64,000 nucleotides of DNA from Candidatus Limnocylindrales bacterium (lineage in GTDB: Bacteria; Chloroflexota; Limnocylindria; Limnocylindrales; CSP1-4): the NCBI GenBank assembly GCA_036002405.1, contig DASYTK010000040.1:1299-65298 (forward strand), read 5' to 3'. The position numbers and the translations under genes are program-made. The notes below the pieces were generated by a model, which did not search any database, was not told the origin of the DNA, and worked only from the letters and a program-made list of their open reading frames with translations. Each line of letters begins with the position of its first letter. The stretch's first letter is position 1. This document shows, one piece after another, positions 21,517 to 45,469 of the stretch.

Positions 21517-23679
21517 TCAGCGTCCCCAGTCGATCGCGGAGATGAGGTCGATGTGGTCGTCCGTCCAGGGCCGCCGTCCCTCGCTGGCGGGCGAGTGCCA
21601 TCGCGAGTCGGAGCGGAGGCGATCGAGCGCGGCTTCCTCGCCCAGGACGAGCCAATGGGAGCCGTCCTCGTCGCCCGCGCGGGCCGGGTCGGTCGGATCG
21701 TCGCGAGCGAGCGCTCCCAGCCCAAGATCGCGGCCCGCCGCGGCCAGGACCGGCTCCAGCTGGACGTAGCGGTTCGAGATGTTCGCCGCGACGAGGCCTC
21801 CCGGCGCGAGGCGGGCGCGGTACGTCGCGAGAGCCTCGCGGGTGAGGAGGTGGACGGGGACGGCGTTGGAGCTGAATGCGTCGAGCACGACGAGGTCGGC
21901 GGCGCCGGGCGGCTGAGCTGCGAGGACGAGCCTGCCGTCGCCCACGAGCACGCGGCTCTGCGCCGGACAGGCCTGGAGCTCCCGGAAGTGGCGCGCGTCG
22001 CGGGCGATCGCGACGACCAGCGGATCGATCTCGACGAACGTGAACGAATCGGTCGCCCTGCCCAGGGCGGTCATCCCGCCGATGCCCAGCCCGATCACGT
22101 CGATCCGGAGCGCGAGACGCTCGGCCTGGAGTGCGGACAGGAGGTCCCCGATCGGCCCATGCCGGTGGTAGTAGCCCATCGGCACGCAGATCTCGCCCGG
22201 CCCTAGCCGGGCGATCCCCTGAACGGTCGAACCGCTCACGAGGGCGCGACGTCCCGCCGCGTCGTCGACGACCCGGTAGAGCCCATAGAACGAGCGCTCG
22301 GTCAGCCGCGCCGGAGGGAGGCCGACCTGCCCAACGAGCAGGAGTCCGGCCGCGGCGGCCGCGAAGGCCGACCGGTGATGGGCGAGGAGCATGGCCAGGG
22401 AGAGACAGAGCGCCGCCAGGAGCGCTCCCGGCTCCGGGCCGGTGTCGAGGGCGACAACGAGCAGCCCGAGGGGGGCCGCCGTCGATGCGACGAGGAGATA
22501 CGGTCGAGCCCGGGTGCCCGTGATCCGGAGCGCGGCCGCCGCCGCGGCGGCGAGCGGCAGCTCGACGAGTCCGTCGAACACGAGCGGAGCGACGAGCGCC
22601 GCCGCGATCCCGCCCAGGGCGCCGCCGGCCGCGATGACGAGGTAGTACCCGGTCAGGCGTTCGGGAGGGGGCCGCTCGGTCGCCAGCCGGGCGTGGAGGG
22701 CGGTGGCGAGGACGAACAGCGCCCCCAGGTGGATCCCAAGGACGAGCCAGAGCGGTCGCGCGATCGCGCCCACGAGGACCAGGGCGAGAAGGACGACCGC
22801 GACCGGCACCGCCGCGCCGGCCAGCCGGGCGGCCCGATCGGCCGCGCCCGGCGCGAATGCCACGACCCAGCTCAACAGGTAGAGCGCAAGCGGGAGGTCC
22901 CACAGGACGGGCGAAGCGGCAAGGTCGAGGGTGATCGCGGTCGTGACGGCGATCGCGAGTGCCGCCGGGACGGCGGCGAGGAGCATCCAGCGGAGCGCGG
23001 TGAGTGGCACCGGGAGGGAGGCCCGGGGCCGGCCGATCCGAGGGCGCTCCGCCGGCGCTCCGATTGCGGTCCCAGGGCGAGCGAGTGCGGCGGTGACGAC
23101 GGTCAGGCCGACGAACGCCGCGTAGCCGATCGACCAGGCCAGCCCCTGCGTGGAGAGGCCCGCGAGCGGCTCGACGACGAAGGGATAGGCCAGCAGGCCA
23201 CAGAGGCTGCCCGCATTGCCGGCCGCGTAGAACGCATACGGATCGGAGCCTTGGGGATGGCCGGACCCGGCGAACCAGCGCTGGAGTGTCGGGCCGGCCG
23301 TCGCGAGCGCGATCGGCAGGGGCCCGACGACCGCGAAGAGGCGAAGGGCGACGTCGAGGGCCGGCGTATCTCCGGGAGCCGCCGCGCCGACCGGTCGAAG
23401 TGGCAGCCAGAGGAGCGGCGCGCCGGCGATCGCCAGCTGGACGAGGACCTGCCCGGTCGGGGCAAGGAATCGCGCCGTGGCGTGGGCCAGCGCGTAGCCG
23501 AGGAGAAGCGCCACCTGATAGAAGACGAGGGCCGTGGCCCACACCGAGCTCGCGCCACCGAAGGCCGGCAGGAGCGCTCGTGCGCTGAGCGGCTGGACGA
23601 CGAACAGGAGCGCACCGGCGAGGAAGACCGCCGCACCGATCGCGACCGCGAGCGCGGCGTGCCGGTGGACAGGGTTCAC
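21517..23679 (-). CDS. Fused polytopic membrane domain / spermidine synthase-like (class I methyltransferase-fold) protein
   Basis: 720 aa. The N-terminal roughly 430 aa are polytopic. The C-terminal part carries VIGLGIGG...FVEIDP...DLVVLDAFSS, the aminopropyltransferase/SAM-fold signature. The GTG start overlaps the carA stop (GTGA). Confidence 0.75.
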   Translation of the reverse strand: MNPVHRHAALAVAIGAAVFLAGALLFVVQPLSARALLPAFGGASSVWATALVFYQVALLLGYALAHATARFLAPTGQVLVQLAIAGAPLLWLPLRPVGAAAPGDTPALDVALRLFAVVGPLPIALATAGPTLQRWFAGSGHPQGSDPYAFYAAGNAGSLCGLLAYPFVVEPLAGLSTQGLAWSIGYAAFVGLTVVTAALARPGTAIGAPAERPRIGRPRASLPVPLTALRWMLLAAVPAALAIAVTTAITLDLAASPVLWDLPLALYLLSWVVAFAPGAADRAARLAGAAVPVAVVLLALVLVGAIARPLWLVLGIHLGALFVLATALHARLATERPPPERLTGYYLVIAAGGALGGIAAALVAPLVFDGLVELPLAAAAAAALRITGTRARPYLLVASTAAPLGLLVVALDTGPEPGALLAALCLSLAMLLAHHRSAFAAAAAGLLLVGQVGLPPARLTERSFYGLYRVVDDAAGRRALVSGSTVQGIARLGPGEICVPMGYYHRHGPIGDLLSALQAERLALRIDVIGLGIGGMTALGRATDSFTFVEIDPLVVAIARDARHFRELQACPAQSRVLVGDGRLVLAAQPPGAADLVVLDAFSSNAVPVHLLTREALATYRARLAPGGLVAANISNRYVQLEPVLAAAGRDLGLGALARDDPTDPARAGDEDGSHWLVLGEEAALDRLRSDSRWHSPASEGRRPWTDDHIDLISAIDWGR

Positions 23680-24821
23680 ACCGGAGCGGCGGCCTCCCGA
23701 ACCCGCGCCGCGAAGCGGTCGAAGACCTCGGTCGCGTCGAGTGGCCCCGGCGATCCCTCCGGGTGGTACTGGACGGTCTCGATCGGCAGCTCCCGGTGGC
23801 GCAGCCCCTCCACCGAGCCGTCGTTGAGATTCCGCTGGCTGACGTAGAAGCCGCTGGCGGCGGCGAGCTCCCCGCCGACGACTTCTACCTCGTGGTTCTG
23901 CGCCGTGATCGTCACCCGGCCGGAGTCGACGTCCTCGACGGGATGATTCGCGCCGTGGTGGCCGAAGCGTAGCCGGCGCGTCTCGGCTCCTGCCGCGCGG
24001 GCGACGATCTGATGACCGAGGCAGATCCCGAGGAGTGGCCGCCCGTCCTGGATCGCAGCACGGGCGAGTGCGACCGGGTCCGCAAGTCGGGCCGGGTCGC
24101 CGGGTCCGGGCGAGAGGACGAGGCCGGCGAGGTCGGCCGCGAGGCAGACGTCGCTACCCGCCGTGTAGGGGAAGACCCGGACGCCCAGGCCTCGGGCCAC
24201 GAGAGCCCGAACGATGTTCGTCTTCAGCCCGTAGTCGACGACCCCCACTCGCGGCGCCGTGTCCTCGCCCACGTCATAGGGCTCCCTTGCCGACACCTGG
24301 TCCACGAAGTCCTGGTCTTCCCAGCGCGCGACGGCAGAGGCCGCCGCGATCGCCGCCTCGCGATCGACCGATCCGGGAGCGGTCAGGACGGCCCGCTGGC
24401 TGCCCGTCGAGCGGAGCCTGCGGGCGAGGGCCCGGGTATCGATCCCGGCGATCGCGGGCACCCCGTGGTCGCGGAGCAAATGGACGAGCTGATACGCGTC
24501 GTCCACGACGGCGGCCGTGCCGTGGGCCACGACGAGCCCCCTGAGCCACGGCCGGCTCGACTGGTCGTCGGCGAGCAGGCGCCCATGGTTTCCGATCAGC
24601 GGATAGGTCATCACGACGAGCTGACCGGCATAGGAGGGGTCGGTGCAGACCTCCTGGTAGCCGGTCTGGCTCGTATTGACGACCAGGTCGCCGCCGGATC
24701 CAACGGCTGCCCCGAAGGCGACGCCCTGGAAGACGGTCCCGTCCTCGAGGGCGAGGAGCGCGGGTCCGGTCGCTCCCAGGCGCGGGTCGACGACGGCCCC
24801 GACGGGGACCGGCAGGCTCAA
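23676..24821 (-). CDS. carA: Carbamoyl-phosphate synthase small (glutaminase) subunit
   Basis: 381 aa. GATase triad context LLGICLGHQIV...HHGANHPV. TTG start overlapping the upstream stop. Confidence 0.9.
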   Translation of the reverse strand: MSLPVPVGAVVDPRLGATGPALLALEDGTVFQGVAFGAAVGSGGDLVVNTSQTGYQEVCTDPSYAGQLVVMTYPLIGNHGRLLADDQSSRPWLRGLVVAHGTAAVVDDAYQLVHLLRDHGVPAIAGIDTRALARRLRSTGSQRAVLTAPGSVDREAAIAAASAVARWEDQDFVDQVSAREPYDVGEDTAPRVGVVDYGLKTNIVRALVARGLGVRVFPYTAGSDVCLAADLAGLVLSPGPGDPARLADPVALARAAIQDGRPLLGICLGHQIVARAAGAETRRLRFGHHGANHPVEDVDSGRVTITAQNHEVEVVGGELAAASGFYVSQRNLNDGSVEGLRHRELPIETVQYHPEGSPGPLDATEVFDRFAARVREAAAPV

Positions 24822-25357
24822 GCGCTCTCGCTCCGCTCGCCGGTCGTGGCCGACTCGGAGGGCTCCGAGGCCTCTGTCGAGGCGTAGCTACCGGCTTCGG
24901 TGGTCGCAGCCCTCGGAGCCTCGTCCTCGCTGGCAGCCAGCCCACCCGCGGCGGTGCCGGCGACTTCACCCCTGGTCGTCGCGCCGGCGTAGATCGTGTC
25001 GGCGCTGTCGAAGACGGGCGTGCCCGCGCTCGTGTACGCGGTGTCGGTAGAGCTCATCCCGGCGATCTTCTCGCGGGTTCGATCGGCCGCCGTCCCAAGC
25101 CGCTCAGCTGGCCGCTGGAACATCCGCATCACCCGGGCGCGCCGGTCGACGCCCGCCTCCGGGTCGAGCAGCCACATCGCCACGGCGCCCAGGATCAGCC
25201 CGCCGAGGAAGGCGATCGCCGCCGGCCGCGGGTCCGGGGGCGGTGGCTGGAAGCGTCGGCGGTTGAGCTCGATGTACTCGCGAACCTGGTCCCGCACCTG
25301 GTGGGCGATGCGCTCGGGATCCGCCTCCGTCAGGCGGCGCAGCCGCTCGAGGTCCAT
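24818..25357 (-). CDS. Hypothetical single-pass membrane protein
   Basis: Start set at the second ATG (MDLERL), which is preceded by AGGAGGA at 7 nt. One TM (AIAFLGGLILGAVAMWLL). The C-terminus is Ala/Thr/Ser/Glu-rich. Confidence 0.55.
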   Translation of the reverse strand: MDLERLRRLTEADPERIAHQVRDQVREYIELNRRRFQPPPPDPRPAAIAFLGGLILGAVAMWLLDPEAGVDRRARVMRMFQRPAERLGTAADRTREKIAGMSSTDTAYTSAGTPVFDSADTIYAGATTRGEVAGTAAGGLAASEDEAPRAATTEAGSYASTEASEPSESATTGERSESA

Positions 25358-25615
25358 CTCACGTCCTCCTGGCATCGTGGTCAGGCGATCGTCGCACTCG
25401 GCGTCGTTCCAGGGCGGCGGTCTGTGTGCCTCGAAGATAGCGATTCCATGCCAAGCCGGTGGTCTCGGGGTCCGGACCCCCCGGTACCGTCGTCCGCTGG
25501 CGTGGTTGACCTGGGCGGCTATCCTGTCCGGGCTGCGGGAGTGGTGCCCGCAGGCACAGCCGCCGGCGGACGATGCCGGCGCTCAAGGACGGCTCCGGGA
25601 GGTCGCGAAAGACCG

Positions 25616-26587
25616 ATGGCGCGCTCGATGTGGCGGGGGGCGATCCAGTTCGGGTTGGTGACGATCCCCGTCCGGTTGTACCTCGCGACCGAGGCGAACG
25701 CCGGGCTCAGCTTCAACCTGCTCCACAAGACCTGCCTGAACCGGATCCAGATGAAGATGTACTGCCCCTACCACGAGGAGTACATCAACCGCGCGGACAC
25801 CGTTCGGGGCTTCGAGTGGTCGAAGGGCGAGTACGTGATCATCACCGACGAAGACCTCGAATCCGTCCCGCTCAAGACGGTCCGCTCGATCGAGATCGAG
25901 TTGTTCGTCGACGCGCGGAAGGATTCGCACGGCGCGCAGTTCGTCAAGCAGGCCTACTACCTCGAGCCCGAGCCGGTCGGCCGGAAGGCCTTCTATCTCC
26001 TGAAGTCGGTCCTGGGCGAGAAGGGCCTCTCGGCGATCTGCAAGGTCGTCATCAAGGACCGCGAGCATCTCGCCGCCCTGAATCCCTACTCCTCGACGAT
26101 GCTCCTCACGAGCCTCTACTGGCCCGACGAGGTCCGCTCGATCGACGAGCTCGAGCTACCCGAGGAACAGCAGGAGTTCCGGGCGGCCGAGCGCAAGATG
26201 GCCGAGCAGCTCGTGGCCGCGATGACCGGCGATTTCACCGCCGACGACTACAAGGACGACTACCGCCAGGCTCTCCTCGCCGTTCTGGAGGCGAAGATCG
26301 CCGGTCGAGCGCCACGCGCCGCCGAGCCCGAGAAGCCGGCCACGAAGCTCGTCGACCTGATGACCGTCCTCGAGGCCAGCGTCGAGGCCGCGAAGGGATC
26401 CCGTCGCGCTCGACCGGCCGAGGCTGCGGCCGATGCGGAGGAGCCCCTCGCCGTCGCAGCGAGTGGCCGACGCGGTCGCGGACGGGCCCAGCCGACGCCC
26501 TCGACGGCTCCCACGAACGGACGCCGCCGGCGAGGAAGCGCGGCTGAGGAGGCCGCCCCGCCGCAGCGGAAGCGAAAGACCGCCTGA
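25616..26587 (+). CDS. ku: Ku protein (NHEJ DNA end-binding)
   Basis: MARSMWRGAIQFGLVTIPVRLYLATE... is the canonical bacterial Ku N-terminus. The tail is Arg/Lys-rich and ends ...QRKRKTA. The ATG at 25616 has GGGAGG upstream. The track ORF start at 25301 was rejected. Confidence 0.9.
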   Translation: MARSMWRGAIQFGLVTIPVRLYLATEANAGLSFNLLHKTCLNRIQMKMYCPYHEEYINRADTVRGFEWSKGEYVIITDEDLESVPLKTVRSIEIELFVDARKDSHGAQFVKQAYYLEPEPVGRKAFYLLKSVLGEKGLSAICKVVIKDREHLAALNPYSSTMLLTSLYWPDEVRSIDELELPEEQQEFRAAERKMAEQLVAAMTGDFTADDYKDDYRQALLAVLEAKIAGRAPRAAEPEKPATKLVDLMTVLEASVEAAKGSRRARPAEAAADAEEPLAVAASGRRGRGRAQPTPSTAPTNGRRRRGSAAEEAAPPQRKRKTA

Positions 26588-26591
26588 GCGC

Positions 26592-27326
26592 GTGCCGTCG
26601 GCGACACGCACGGATGCGAACGGACCCGGCCCCGCCGAGGAGTCCCGCGACCAGCTGAAGCTCGCGATCGAGGAGCGCGGGTCGGCGGGCGCTCCGCTCC
26701 GCGTTCGGCCGATGATCCCGTCCGAGGGCCACGCCCCTTTCGACGATCCGGCCTATCTCTTCGAGCCGTGGTGGCCCGGGAGCCGGGCGTTCCTGGGTGT
26801 CGCGCGCGAGGGCCTGCGCCTCTGGAGCGAGCACCTGGCCGACCCGCTCGAGGTGTTCCCGGAGCTCGCGACGATCGCCGACCAGGCACGCGGCCTGCCG
26901 CTGCTCCTCGAAGGGACCCTGCTCGTCCTCGACCCTGAAGGCCAGCCCGACGCGGAGCTGCTCCGTCGCCGGCTCGAGGGACACGAAGCGGACGTGGGGG
27001 AGCCCGCCTTCGTCGCGACCGATCTCCTCGAAGCCGAGGGCCGGCTCATCGGCGGGCGTCCCCTGGCCGAGCGACGCGACCGACTGGAGACGCTCCTCCC
27101 CGACGGAGAATGGTGCGTCGTCGGGCGGGCCTGGCGCGACGAGGGCCAGGCCGTCGCGGAGGCGCTCGGCTCGATGGGCCTGGAGTGGATGTCCGCCCGG
27201 CGGCTCGACGCCCGTTATCGCTCCGGGCCGGCGGGAGACGACTGGCTGAAGGTGCCGGTCGTGCCGACCGAGCCCCCGGTGCGCCGGCCGATCCTCGCCG
27301 TCATCCAGCGCCTGCCGCTCGGCTGA
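26592..27326 (+). CDS. ATP-dependent DNA ligase-like protein: adenylation-domain homolog with degenerate catalytic motifs and no OB domain
   Basis: Collinear with LigD/LigC NTase-domain motifs:
- Motif I: PFDDPAYLFEPWWPGSRAF, where KxDG is expected.
- Motif III: LEGTLLVLD.
- Motif IV: AFVATDLL.
- Motif V: LEWMSARRLDARYRSG...WLKVP.
The start is either GTG 26592 or ATG 26712. Confidence 0.65.
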   Translation: MPSATRTDANGPGPAEESRDQLKLAIEERGSAGAPLRVRPMIPSEGHAPFDDPAYLFEPWWPGSRAFLGVAREGLRLWSEHLADPLEVFPELATIADQARGLPLLLEGTLLVLDPEGQPDAELLRRRLEGHEADVGEPAFVATDLLEAEGRLIGGRPLAERRDRLETLLPDGEWCVVGRAWRDEGQAVAEALGSMGLEWMSARRLDARYRSGPAGDDWLKVPVVPTEPPVRRPILAVIQRLPLG

Positions 27327-30010: not shown

Positions 30011-30085
30011 TGGTGAGCCCGGCAGGATTCGAACCTGCGACACGCAGATTAAGAGTCTGCTGTTCTACCGCTGAACTACGGGCCC
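30011..30085 (-). tRNA. tRNA-Lys (anticodon CUU), CCA encoded
   Basis: The reverse complement folds as a cloverleaf: GGGCCCG-TA-GTTC-AGCGGTA-GAAC-A-GCAGA-CTCTTAA-TCTGC-GTGTC-GCAGG-TTCGAAT-CCTGC-CGGGCTC-A-CCA. Confidence 0.9.
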
Positions 30086-45393: not shown

Positions 45394-45469
45394 TGGCGCG
45401 CCCGGCAGGATTCGAACCCGCGACCTGGTGGTCCGAAGCCACCCGCTCTGTCCGCTGAGCTACAGGCGC
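45394..45469 (-). tRNA. tRNA-Arg (anticodon UCG), CCA encoded
   Basis: The reverse complement folds as GCGCCTG-TA-GCTC-AGCGGACA-GAGC-G-GGTGG-CTTCGGA-CCACC-AGGTC-GCGGG-TTCGAAT-CCTGC-CGGGCGC-G-CCA. Confidence 0.9.

What the first reader, a model, noticed from the sequence alone, without database searches (positions are those of the whole stretch)
25616..27326. Ku is paired with a ligase-like gene whose catalytic lysine motif is destroyed (KxDG becomes WWPG) and which lacks an OB domain
Seen in sequence:
- The ORF starts 5 nt after the ku stop and is collinear with the adenylation domain of LigD/LigC-type ATP-dependent ligases.
- Motif I reads EPWWPGSR (nt 26763-26786) where E-x-K-x-D-G-x-R is expected.
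- Motif V reads LEWMSARR where EG-x-x-x-K is expected.
- The W-L-K-V-K element reads WLKVP.
- The protein stops about 20 aa later, so there is no OB-fold domain.
- No polymerase/primase or phosphoesterase domain gene is nearby.

Established knowledge: the motif I lysine is the AMP-accepting nucleophile of all ATP-dependent ligases. Bacterial NHEJ normally needs Ku plus a competent LigD or LigC.

Inference: this is either a decaying ligase gene or a retained pseudo-enzyme. A pseudo-enzyme could act as a Ku-binding or DNA-end-binding adaptor, with the real ligase encoded elsewhere.
Basis: partly seen in the sequence, partly recalled or inferred. Interest (0 to 1): 0.65.

Follow-up and report, generated by a model that had tools for sequence, protein, structure and literature searches.

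The report
Ku-coupled dead ligase-like protein family
Right behind the DNA-end-binding gene ku sits a conserved gene derived from a DNA ligase that has lost every residue needed to ligate. It is kept under selection in at least 248 uncultured Chloroflexota (Limnocylindria) species, so it is most likely a non-enzymatic helper of bacterial end-joining repair.

Summary
Window 26592-27326 (+) encodes a 244-aa homologue of the adenylation (NTase) domain of LigD-type ATP-dependent ligases. It starts 4 nt after the ku stop. Motif I reads EPWWPGSR instead of ExKxDGxR, the other nucleotide-contact residues are also replaced, and there is no OB domain.

It is not a lesion. EPWWPG is invariant in 83/83 orthologues examined, and 248 species-level genomes, all Chloroflexota/Limnocylindria, encode a relative. 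Pairwise dN/dS is 0.05-0.3, the same range as the neighbouring ku. Family members carry a median of zero lysines.

Ku lies immediately upstream in 80 of 81 evaluable loci, usually with overlapping or nearly abutting stop and start codons. In 12 of 82 related loci a full-length, intact LigD (PE-Lig-Pol) sits beside the pair. In 23 loci a three-domain ligase lies 3-6 kb upstream. The 64-kb window has neither.

The core is acidic, and the two disordered ends carry conserved peptide motifs: an N-terminal QLxLx[ILF], which resembles a beta-clamp-binding motif, and a C-terminal RPxLxLIxRLPL.

Best reading: a non-catalytic Ku partner derived from the ligase domain that Ku's C-terminal helix normally docks on. 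I found no description of it in the searchable literature. The mechanism is inferred, not shown.

The parts
25616..26587 (+). ku gene (323 aa): Ku core, minimal C-terminal helix and a basic extended tail (residues 257-323, pI 11.8, net +9)
   Evidence: TIGR02772 2.7e-74 and PF02735 1.6e-36. Tail charge.
26588..26591 (+). 4-nt spacer between the ku stop (TGA 26585-26587) and the GTG start of the ligase-like gene, suggesting translational coupling
   Evidence: Sequence. Across 75 orthologous loci the stop and start overlap by 4 nt in 16 cases, and the median gap is 8 nt.
26592..27326 (+). Pseudo-ligase gene (244 aa plus stop): a LigD-type NTase (adenylation) fold without catalytic residues and without an OB domain
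   Evidence: homology and fold. (motif loss conserved across the family). (purifying selection).
26652..26669 (+). N-terminal peptide motif QLKLAI (family consensus [ED]-Q-L-x-L-x-[ILF]) in a region predicted to be disordered; it resembles the beta-clamp-binding hexapeptide QLxLxL
   Evidence: Q in 66, L in 75 and L in 74 of 83 orthologues, the remainder being mostly alignment gaps. pLDDT is 53-57 for residues 1-30. Motif definition from PMC4564189 and PMC5397184. Function is inferred only.
26763..26786 (+). Motif I remnant EPWWPGSR, with W60 in place of the AMP-accepting lysine and P62 in place of the aspartate
   Evidence: Aligned to EGKWDGYR of Mtb LigD. EPWWPG is invariant in 83/83.
26907..26924 (+). 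Motif III remnant LEGTLL (LigD has xDGExV; the ribose-contacting Glu is replaced by Thr)
   Evidence: Family consensus is (L/I/V)(D/E)GTLL. The co-resident LigD has IVDGEVV.
27009..27029 (+). Motif IIIa remnant FVATDLL (the adenine-stacking aromatic of LigD 'aFDLL' is replaced by Thr or Ser)
   Evidence: Family reads A(S/T)DLL. LigD reads FMAFDL.
27180..27203 (+). Motif IV remnant LEWMSARR (LigD has EGxxxK; Lys is replaced by Arg203)
   Evidence: xSARR is conserved across the family. LigD has LEGAMAKHR.
27243..27257 (+). Motif V remnant WLKVP (LigD has WLKxK; the family consensus is WLRxP, so the second Lys is replaced by Pro)
27285..27323 (+). Conserved extreme C-terminal peptide RPILAVIQRLPLG (family consensus RPxLx[LV][LI]xRLPL), predicted to be disordered
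   Evidence: P233, L235, R240, L241, P242 and L243 are each conserved in at least 90% of 83 orthologues. pLDDT is 60-65. The motif is shared with the sister Lys-less family and with P0266.

Best explanation
The gene encodes a conserved pseudo-enzyme. It is a paralogue of the nucleotidyltransferase (adenylation) subdomain of a LigD/LigC-type NHEJ ligase. It can no longer bind or transfer AMP, has no OB domain, and is made together with Ku from a two-gene operon.

Most likely it is a non-catalytic subunit or accessory factor of the Ku end-joining machinery. Its inert NTase fold keeps the surface on which the Ku C-terminal helix normally docks in LigD. Its acidic surface complements Ku's basic tail. 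Its two disordered terminal peptides tether further partners, possibly the beta sliding clamp through the N-terminal QLxLx[ILF] motif and/or a real ligase.

**Shown:** homology and fold, loss of all catalytic residues, purifying selection, obligate ku linkage, the presence of an intact LigD beside the pair in some lineages, and the acidic shift.

**Inferred:** physical binding to Ku, and what the terminal motifs bind.
For: **1. Ligase NTase fold without chemistry.**
- Mtb LigD K481 aligns with W60.
- The AF2 model's top structural matches are ligase NTase domains.
- Motifs I, III, IIIa, IV and V are all altered in a family-wide conserved way.
- No K or H is conserved, and the median member has 0 lysines. 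Ku in the same operon has 19.
- No OB domain is present.

**2. Functional gene.** 248 species-level genomes encode a relative. dN/dS is 0.05-0.3, equal to the adjacent ku.

**3. Ku linkage.**
- Ku is immediately upstream on the same strand in 80 of 81 evaluable loci, while the flanking genes differ.
- Stop and start overlap by 4 nt in 16 of 75 loci, and the median gap is 8 nt.

**4. It works beside real ligases, not instead of them.** The order Ku, pseudo-ligase, full-length LigD (PE-Lig-Pol, intact EPKWDGYR) is seen in 12 of 82 loci and in L083.

**5. Published precedent for the docking surface.** The Ku minimal C-terminal helix binds the LigD ligase (NTase) domain in M. tuberculosis (10.64898/2025.12.12.693941). 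AlphaFold models of B. subtilis Ku-LigD place that helix against the ligase domain (PMC13201618).

**6. Charge complementarity.** The window protein core has pI 4.6 and net charge -15. The family median pI is 5.0, against pI 7.4-9.8 for co-resident LigD NTase domains. The Ku tail has pI 11.8 and net +9.

**7. Conserved terminal peptides in low-pLDDT regions.** They are shared with a sister Lys-less family and with a Lys-less NTase+OB relative. The N-terminal one matches the QLxLxL clamp-binding consensus and sits near the N-terminus, as in Hda.
Against: - No direct evidence of Ku binding. Complex prediction was not possible with these tools.
- The Mtb LigD residues that contact Ku (D522, R567, T572, K579, L580) are not conserved in identity in the family. 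My mapping gives G101, R151, R156, D163 and R164. Ku-LigD contacts are species-specific, so this is inconclusive.
- The sister family, which has the same terminal motifs, is a stand-alone gene with no ku within 7 kb. The ancestral role of the scaffold therefore need not involve Ku.
- One orthologue (L058) lacks an upstream ku.
- Arg replaces Lys at motif IV and at the first motif V position, so some phosphate-binding capacity could remain.
Confidence: 0.62

Rival explanations
1. Decoy or negative regulator. The dead NTase domain competes with the LigD ligase domain for the Ku C-terminal arm, or masks Ku's basic DNA-binding tail as an acidic DNA mimic. This would hold Ku in check, for example to stop Ku blocking recombination or to limit mutagenic NHEJ.
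For: - It derives from the domain Ku docks on.
- It has a strongly acidic core opposite a basic Ku tail.
- Translational coupling implies stoichiometric co-synthesis.
- It is present even where LigD is encoded next door.
Against: - Nothing distinguishes a decoy from an adaptor in the present data.
- The conserved terminal peptide motifs suggest recruitment of further partners rather than simple blocking.
- A constitutive inhibitor co-translated 1:1 with its target is an unusual design.
Confidence: 0.18
2. Clamp-associated factor whose main partner is the beta sliding clamp or another ubiquitous protein. On this reading ku linkage is a secondary acquisition of one subfamily.
For: - The N-terminal [ED]QLxLx[ILF] motif near the N-terminus matches the QLxLxL clamp-binding consensus.
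- The same termini occur in the sister EPxWGG family, which is not next to ku.
Against: - This is a motif match only, with no binding test.
- In the LigD-adjacent subclade the Gln is often replaced, giving xPLPLEF.
- 80 of 81 EPWWPG genes are fused operonically to ku.
Confidence: 0.1
3. Cryptic enzyme. The fold has been re-tooled for a different activity, for example a phosphate or nucleotide sensor, a lyase, or a transfer reaction that does not use lysine.
For: - Arg is kept at the motif IV and first motif V positions (R203, R220), and acidic residues D51, E58, D114 and D144 are invariant.
- The LigD ligase domain has a reported secondary 5'-dRP lyase activity (PMC4770248, listed).
Against: - No K or H is conserved. 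A dRP lyase needs an amine nucleophile, and the median member has 0 lysines.
- The nucleotide-stacking and ribose contacts are lost.
- There is no OB domain, and the surface is acidic.
Confidence: 0.07
4. Decaying pseudogene, strain-specific lesion or sequencing error.
For: None beyond the loss of catalytic motifs in this one sequence.
Against: - EPWWPG is invariant in 83/83 orthologues.
- 248 species encode a relative.
- dN/dS is 0.05-0.3.
- Reading frames are intact throughout.
Confidence: 0.01

Closest known systems
Ligase (NTase) subdomain of bacterial DNA ligase D / LigC, e.g. M. tuberculosis LigD LigDom (PDB 1vs0, 6nhx)
   Same: - Same fold, with collinear motifs I-V.
- Closest intact relatives by profile are NCBIfam LigD families. 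A co-resident Limnocylindria LigD ligase domain hits at 1e-15 to 1e-31, against 1e-6 to 1e-9 for the three-domain ligase.
- Genomic association with ku.
- In LigD, this subdomain is the one contacted by the Ku C-terminal helix.
   Different: - No motif I lysine, and most members have no lysine at all.
- Motif III Glu, motif IIIa aromatic and the second motif V Lys are lost.
- No OB domain, and no PE or Pol domains.
- Acidic rather than neutral or basic.
- Extra conserved N- and C-terminal peptides.
- Scores below every curated family cutoff.
Sister Lys-less family in Limnocylindrales (motif I EPxWGG; e.g. P0353, P0328, P0341, P0361) and the Lys-less NTase+OB relative P0266
   Same: - About 250 aa, NTase-only for the EPxWGG family.
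- No motif I lysine.
- Same N-terminal DQL(S/T)LxL and C-terminal LALI(Q/R)RLPL motifs.
- Same phylum.
   Different: - Motif I is EPxWGG rather than EPWWPG.
- In both contexts examined it is a stand-alone gene between a peptidase S9 gene and an ABC transporter, with no ku within 7 kb.
- P0266 still has a weak OB-domain match.
Eukaryotic non-catalytic NHEJ scaffolds that bind Ku through short terminal peptides (XRCC4/XLF/PAXX/APLF-type Ku-binding motifs). This is from my own knowledge and is a functional analogy only.
   Same: A non-enzymatic protein dedicated to the Ku pathway, with conserved short linear motifs at disordered termini.
   Different: No sequence or fold relationship. Ku binding by the present protein is untested.
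Hda and other beta-clamp clients with a QLxLxL/QLxLF clamp-binding motif (PMC5397184, PMC4564189)
   Same: A hexapeptide Q-L-x-L-x-[LIF] in a flexible N-terminal segment a few residues from the start.
   Different: The rest of the protein is unrelated. Clamp binding is not tested, and the Gln is not universal in one subclade.

Membership tests
ATP-dependent DNA ligase (LigD/LigC-type ligase domain, as an enzyme) | Nucleotidyltransferase (adenylation) fold with collinear motifs I-V | tested here: met
   phmmer against 1vs0/6nhx gives about 1e-10. The AF2 model has pLDDT 87, and its top Foldseek hits are ligase NTase domains.
ATP-dependent DNA ligase (LigD/LigC-type ligase domain, as an enzyme) | Motif I KxDG with the AMP-accepting lysine | tested here: not met
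   The motif reads EPWWPGSR, and K481 of Mtb LigD aligns with W60. W is present in 83/83 orthologues. No lysine is conserved anywhere, and the median member has 0 lysines.
ATP-dependent DNA ligase (LigD/LigC-type ligase domain, as an enzyme) | Nucleotide-contact residues of motifs III (DGE), IIIa (aromatic), IV (EGxxxK) and V (WLKxK) | tested here: not met
   The family reads (D/E)GT, A(S/T)DLL, xSARR and WLRxP, against DGE, AFDL, EGAMAK and WLKLK in the neighbouring LigD.
ATP-dependent DNA ligase (LigD/LigC-type ligase domain, as an enzyme) | C-terminal OB-fold domain (PF04679) completing the catalytic core | tested here: not met
   The protein ends 22 residues after motif V, and no PF04679 hit is found. 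The model shows no further domain.
ATP-dependent DNA ligase (LigD/LigC-type ligase domain, as an enzyme) | Score above curated family thresholds | tested here: not met
   PF01068 scores 21.9 against 26.2. TIGR02779 scores 76 against 227.75. PRK09632 scores 80 against 989.
ATP-dependent DNA ligase (LigD/LigC-type ligase domain, as an enzyme) | Self-adenylylation and nick sealing | not testable with these tools
   Needs a biochemical assay with [alpha-32P]ATP and nicked DNA.
Pseudo-enzyme (conserved catalytically dead paralogue) | Homologous to an enzyme family, lacks catalytic residues, and is maintained by purifying selection | tested here: met
   Homology. Residue loss. dN/dS of 0.05-0.3 in closely related pairs, like ku. 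248 species.
Bacterial NHEJ gene cluster | Same-strand adjacency to ku, conserved across lineages with different flanks | tested here: met
   80 of 81 evaluable loci. The flanks differ between loci. The median intergenic gap is 8 nt, and 16 loci have a 4-nt overlap.
Bacterial NHEJ gene cluster | A catalytically competent LigD/LigC (ligase, with or without Pol and PE) in the same genome | tested here: inconclusive
   None is present in the 64-kb window. A full-length LigD is adjacent in 12 of 82 related loci, and a three-domain ligase lies within 6 kb in 23 of 82. The rest of this genome is not available.
Ku-binding NHEJ accessory factor | Physical interaction with Ku | not testable with these tools
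   Only single-chain structure prediction was possible. Support is indirect.
Beta-clamp-binding proteins | QLxLxL/QLxLF motif in a flexible region | tested here: met
   The window has QLKLAI at residues 21-26. The family consensus is Q-L-x-L-x-[ILF], in a low-pLDDT segment.
Beta-clamp-binding proteins | Binding to the DnaN hydrophobic cleft | not testable with these tools
   Needs a peptide-DnaN binding assay or complex modelling.

The most novel reading that the evidence does not exclude
The pseudo-ligase is a dedicated non-catalytic third component of a bacterial NHEJ machine, a prokaryotic counterpart in role (not ancestry) of XRCC4/XLF/PAXX-type scaffolds. It would dock on the Ku C-terminal arm with its dead NTase fold and use its terminal peptides to bring in the beta sliding clamp and/or a ligase that cannot bind Ku itself, such as a three-domain ATP ligase or LigA. 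That would permit Ku-dependent end joining without LigD in lineages such as the one in this window.
Probability: 0.2. Interest if true: 0.8.

Novelty: new variant of a known kind. Interest (0 to 1): 0.62.

Why it matters
Bacterial NHEJ is usually described as a two-protein system of Ku and LigD. Comparative surveys score genomes simply by the presence of Ku and LIG/POL/PE domains (PMC7719229).

A ligase-derived protein that cannot ligate, yet is translationally coupled to Ku and conserved in hundreds of species, would be a third, non-enzymatic component.

It is also an annotation trap. JGI labels it 'bifunctional NHEJ protein LigD'. Genomes carrying it may therefore be scored NHEJ-positive when the only 'ligase' next to ku is dead.

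The family offers a natural separation-of-function version of the LigD ligase domain: the docking surface without the chemistry. That could help dissect how Ku's C-terminal arm engages the ligase.

My profile search also turned up many other Lys-less LigD-like representatives, which suggests ligase pseudo-enzymes are more common than is appreciated.

Tried and rejected
1. **Strain-specific lesion or pseudogene.** Rejected by family conservation and dN/dS.
2. **C-terminal tail as a remnant of the first OB strand.** LigD has WLKLKVRPTQELVVGGY at that point. Rejected because P0266 keeps an OB-like domain between motif V and the same tail, and P0307, an apparently intact ligase, has a similar tail.
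3. **Mapping the published Ku-contact residues of Mtb LigD onto the family.** D522, R567, T572, K579 and L580 map to G101, R151, R156, D163 and R164. Their identities are not conserved, so this is uninformative.
4. **Looking for LigD elsewhere in pseudo-ligase genomes that lack an adjacent LigD.**
   - I matched 'longest contig' lengths in a LigD homologue search against the contig lengths of pseudo-ligase loci.
   - The only matches came from loci already known to have LigD adjacent (219120, 251300, 221872, 163971, 13417).
   - None came from the 1-2.9 Mb contigs.
   - Only the top 120 of 7287 hits are listed, so this is inconclusive.
5. **Neighbourhood clustering.** Only ku is universally linked. 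All other neighbours occur in at most 28 of 83 loci. The three-domain ligase upstream is separated from ku by unrelated genes, a methyltransferase and an opposite-strand ATPase.
6. **Viral contigs.** No relatives found.
7. **PADLOC and PHROGs.** No hits.
8. **Sigma-70 promoter and intrinsic terminator scans around the operon.** Nothing found.
9. **Rfam.** Only two tRNAs in the window.
10. **Literature searches** for a Lys-less ligase paired with Ku, or a DNA 'pseudoligase'. Nothing relevant.
Full report
**What is there.** The window has 71.6% G+C. It carries a bona fide bacterial ku at 25616-26587 (+) (TIGR02772 2.7e-74, above its cutoff; PF02735 1.6e-36). Four nucleotides after the ku stop, a GTG at 26592 opens a 244-codon ORF that ends at 27326.

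That ORF is a genuine but highly diverged homologue of the adenylation (nucleotidyltransferase, NTase) subdomain of LigD-type ATP-dependent ligases.
- NCBIfam LigD models hit at 1e-22 to 1e-15, far below their curated cutoffs.
- Pfam PF01068 scores 21.9 bits, below its gathering score of 26.2.
- The best solved structures by sequence are the M. tuberculosis LigD ligase domain entries 1vs0 and 6nhx, at about 1e-10. In that alignment the catalytic K481 of EGKWDGYR falls on W60 of EPWWPGSR.
- An AlphaFold2 model built on 42 family members is confident (pLDDT 87; residues 40-225 above 90). Its best PDB matches are NTase domains of ATP-dependent DNA ligases, including Mtb LigD.

- The gap to ku is 4 nt, not 5.
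- LEWMSARR is the remnant of motif IV, and WLKVP is the remnant of motif V.
- Only K to W and D to P are new in motif I, because LigD already reads KWDG.

The protein ends 22 residues after motif V and has no OB domain. I searched all window ORFs with the PE, ligase and Pol domains of a Limnocylindria LigD and with a three-domain ligase. No other ligase, polymerase or phosphoesterase gene is present in the 64 kb.

**It is a conserved family, not a lesion.**
- A search of 5.8 billion proteins returned 486 hits. The best 120 are all 195-300 aa, are 46-80% identical, and come largely from Candidatus Limnocylindria (Chloroflexota) MAGs. EPWWPG is present in 117 of these 120.
- A scan of one genome per species for [FL]FEPWWPG found 248 genomes that encode a relative. 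All those listed are Chloroflexota/Limnocylindria.
- In the 83 orthologous genes I extracted (82 loci plus the window), EPWWP is invariant. The other motif remnants are also family-wide: (D/E)GT for DGE, A(S/T)DLL for aFDLL, xSARR for EGxxxK, and WLRxP for WLKxK.
- No lysine or histidine is conserved, and the median member contains no lysine at all. The ku in the same operon encodes 19 lysines.
- Nei-Gojobori dN/dS for pairs at least 70% identical is 0.05-0.3, the same range as the adjacent ku.

The 'decaying gene' and 'sequencing error' readings are therefore excluded. So is a lysyl-AMP mechanism.

**Genomic company.**
- Ku lies immediately upstream on the same strand in 80 of 81 loci where upstream DNA is available. 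L058 is the one real exception.
- Flanking genes differ between lineages. Clustering of all neighbouring ORFs found nothing else present in more than 28 of 83 loci.
- The ku stop and the pseudo-ligase start overlap by 4 nt in 16 of 75 loci. The median gap is 8 nt. This points to translational coupling and co-synthesis.
- In 12 of 82 loci, and in L083, a full-length LigD abuts the pair. It has PE, ligase (NTase+OB) and Prim-Pol domains and an intact EPKWDGYR. The usual order is Ku, pseudo-ligase, LigD.
- The stretch around motif I of that LigD (PMLATPGTAPFDDEAWLFEPKWDGYR) closely resembles the pseudo-ligase consensus (RPMxPxxGxAPFDDPxYFFEPWWPGxR). This suggests the pseudo-ligase arose from a LigD/LigC-type ligase domain.
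- In 23 loci a three-domain ATP-dependent ligase (PF04675/PF01068/PF04679) lies 3-6 kb upstream. It is separated from ku by unrelated genes.
- A more distant Chloroflexota locus has Ku and LigD but no pseudo-ligase between them (L084).

So the protein works alongside real ligases where these can be seen. For the window's own genome, the whereabouts of a real NHEJ ligase remain unknown.

**Clues to mechanism.**
1. Published work shows that the Ku minimal C-terminal helix contacts the ligase (NTase) domain of LigD.
   - Mutagenesis, binding assays and AF3 modelling show this for M. tuberculosis (bioRxiv 10.64898/2025.12.12.693941).
   - For B. subtilis, AlphaFold models place that helix against the ligase domain, and chimera experiments show that the minimal C-terminal region sets specificity for the cognate LigD (PMC13201618).
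   - A stand-alone copy of that subdomain, co-translated with Ku, is thus a natural candidate Ku-arm binder.
2. The core has turned acidic. In the window it has pI 4.6 and net charge -15. The family median pI is 5.0, whereas co-resident LigD NTase domains have pI 7.4-9.8. Ku's extended tail here has pI 11.8 and net +9. This argues against DNA-end binding by the core and for binding a basic partner.
3. Both termini are predicted to be disordered yet carry conserved peptides.
   - Near the N-terminus is [ED]-Q-L-x-L-x-[ILF], beginning a median of 26 nt after the ku stop.
   - At the extreme C-terminus is RPxLx[LV][LI]xRLPL.
   - The N-terminal peptide fits the hexameric beta-clamp-binding consensus QLxLxL and sits near the N-terminus, like QLSLPL in Hda (PMC4564189, PMC5397184). 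This is a motif match only.
   - The same two peptides occur in a sister Lys-less family (motif I EPxWGG; 822 hits, Limnocylindrales), which is a stand-alone gene with no ku nearby.
   - They also occur in a 362-aa Lys-less relative that still has an OB-like domain (P0266).
   - A similar C-terminal tail is present on an apparently intact 358-aa ligase (P0307).
   - The tails therefore predate, or are independent of, the Ku linkage, and probably recruit a common partner.

**Best explanation and rivals.**
- I conclude with high confidence that this is a conserved, catalytically dead, OB-less paralogue of the NHEJ ligase adenylation domain, expressed with Ku.
- With moderate confidence (about 0.6) I read it as a non-catalytic Ku partner that uses its inert NTase fold to dock on Ku and its terminal peptides to tether other factors.
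- Whether it promotes joining (an adaptor, perhaps to a ligase or to the clamp) or restrains Ku (a decoy or tail mask) cannot be decided from sequence.
- A re-tooled enzyme is unlikely, given that the median family member has no lysine and no lysine or histidine is conserved, and that the nucleotide contacts are lost.
- A role centred on the clamp, with Ku linkage secondary, remains possible because of the stand-alone sister family.

**Comparison with what is known.** It is not a member of the ligase family in the functional sense. Four defining features were tested and are not met: the motif I lysine, the nucleotide-contact residues of motifs III-V, the OB domain, and the curated score thresholds. 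It has the ligase fold and ancestry.

Comparative surveys of bacterial NHEJ classify genomes by the presence of Ku and LIG/POL/PE domains and do not mention inactive ligases (PMC7719229). Five further literature searches found no description of a Lys-less ligase paired with Ku. Databases call it 'hypothetical protein' (NCBI) or, wrongly, 'bifunctional NHEJ protein LigD' (JGI).

I rate it a new variant of a known kind: an uncharacterised pseudo-enzyme branch of the LigD/LigC ligase-domain family, and a candidate third component of bacterial NHEJ.

**Limits.**
- All members come from uncultured organisms.
- The rest of this genome could not be inspected.
- The proposed functions of the terminal motifs rest on resemblance alone.

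Noticed in passing
L085 7001-7783 and L086 7001-7792 (proteins P0405, P0485; family of P0353): A sister family of about 250-aa Lys-less ligase-like proteins (motif I EPxWGG) in Limnocylindrales. It shares the N-terminal DQL(S/T)LxL and C-terminal LALI(Q/R)RLPL peptides. It is a stand-alone gene between a peptidase S9 gene and an ABC transporter, with no ku within 7 kb.
   Followed up: partly
Representative proteins P0264-P0384: Among the best LigD/LigC-like representatives, about 30 further sequences lack the motif I lysine (K replaced by R, L, A, D, S, N or G; e.g. EPSWDGLR, EIDWDGSR, EPAWDGVR, EVLWDGIR). Some are about 350 aa and still have an OB region. Dead ligase paralogues appear to be recurrent. 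Their taxonomy and genomic context are unknown.
   Followed up: no
L083 1950-3290 (+), L084 2476-3801 (+); also L063, L071, L049, L058, L007, L002: A conserved protein of about 445 aa with no Pfam, PADLOC or PHROG hit lies near ku in at least 8 loci, at varying position and orientation. It contains a PD-(D/E)xK-like 'KGDFVV...VVEAKDR' stretch. It is absent from the window.
   Followed up: partly
LigD proteins P0121-P0240 (e.g. L063 10745-13630): Full-length LigD of this clade ends in a conserved extreme C-terminal GPGQELP(K/R)L in 106 of 110 sequences. This is reminiscent of the xRLPL tail of the pseudo-ligase, so the two tails may share a docking site.
   Followed up: no
23 loci, e.g. L044 4013-5779 (+): A three-domain ATP-dependent DNA ligase (PF04675/PF01068/PF04679; motif I IEDKYDGIR) lies 3-6 kb upstream of the ku/pseudo-ligase pair on the same strand. 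A methyltransferase and an opposite-strand ATPase lie between them. It is probably clade synteny rather than an operon.
   Followed up: partly
L023 4821-5750 (+); L010/L057 and L047/L070: One locus has a second, solitary ku 4 kb upstream of the ku/pseudo-ligase pair. Two MAGs each carry two separate ku/pseudo-ligase loci, which may be paralogous operons or strain mixtures.
   Followed up: no
Protein P0307 (358 aa): An apparently intact stand-alone ligase (ELKWDGIR, LDGEIV, GIVAKR) carries a C-terminal tail, RPRLIVLNSLPF, similar to that of the pseudo-ligases. The tail motif may therefore also be used by active ligases.
   Followed up: no
window 26592-27326 and its homologues in public databases: JGI annotation calls these dead 200-250-aa proteins 'bifunctional non-homologous end joining protein LigD' or 'ATP-dependent DNA ligase'. 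Domain-presence surveys would count them as NHEJ ligases.
   Followed up: yes
window 30011-30085 (-) and 45394-45469 (-): tRNA-Lys(CTT) and tRNA-Arg(TCG) are the only Rfam or ARAGORN hits in the window. The genes flanking the operon are the carbamoyl-phosphate synthase small chain (23676-24821, -) and a weak YtxH-like ORF (24818-25375, -).
   Followed up: no
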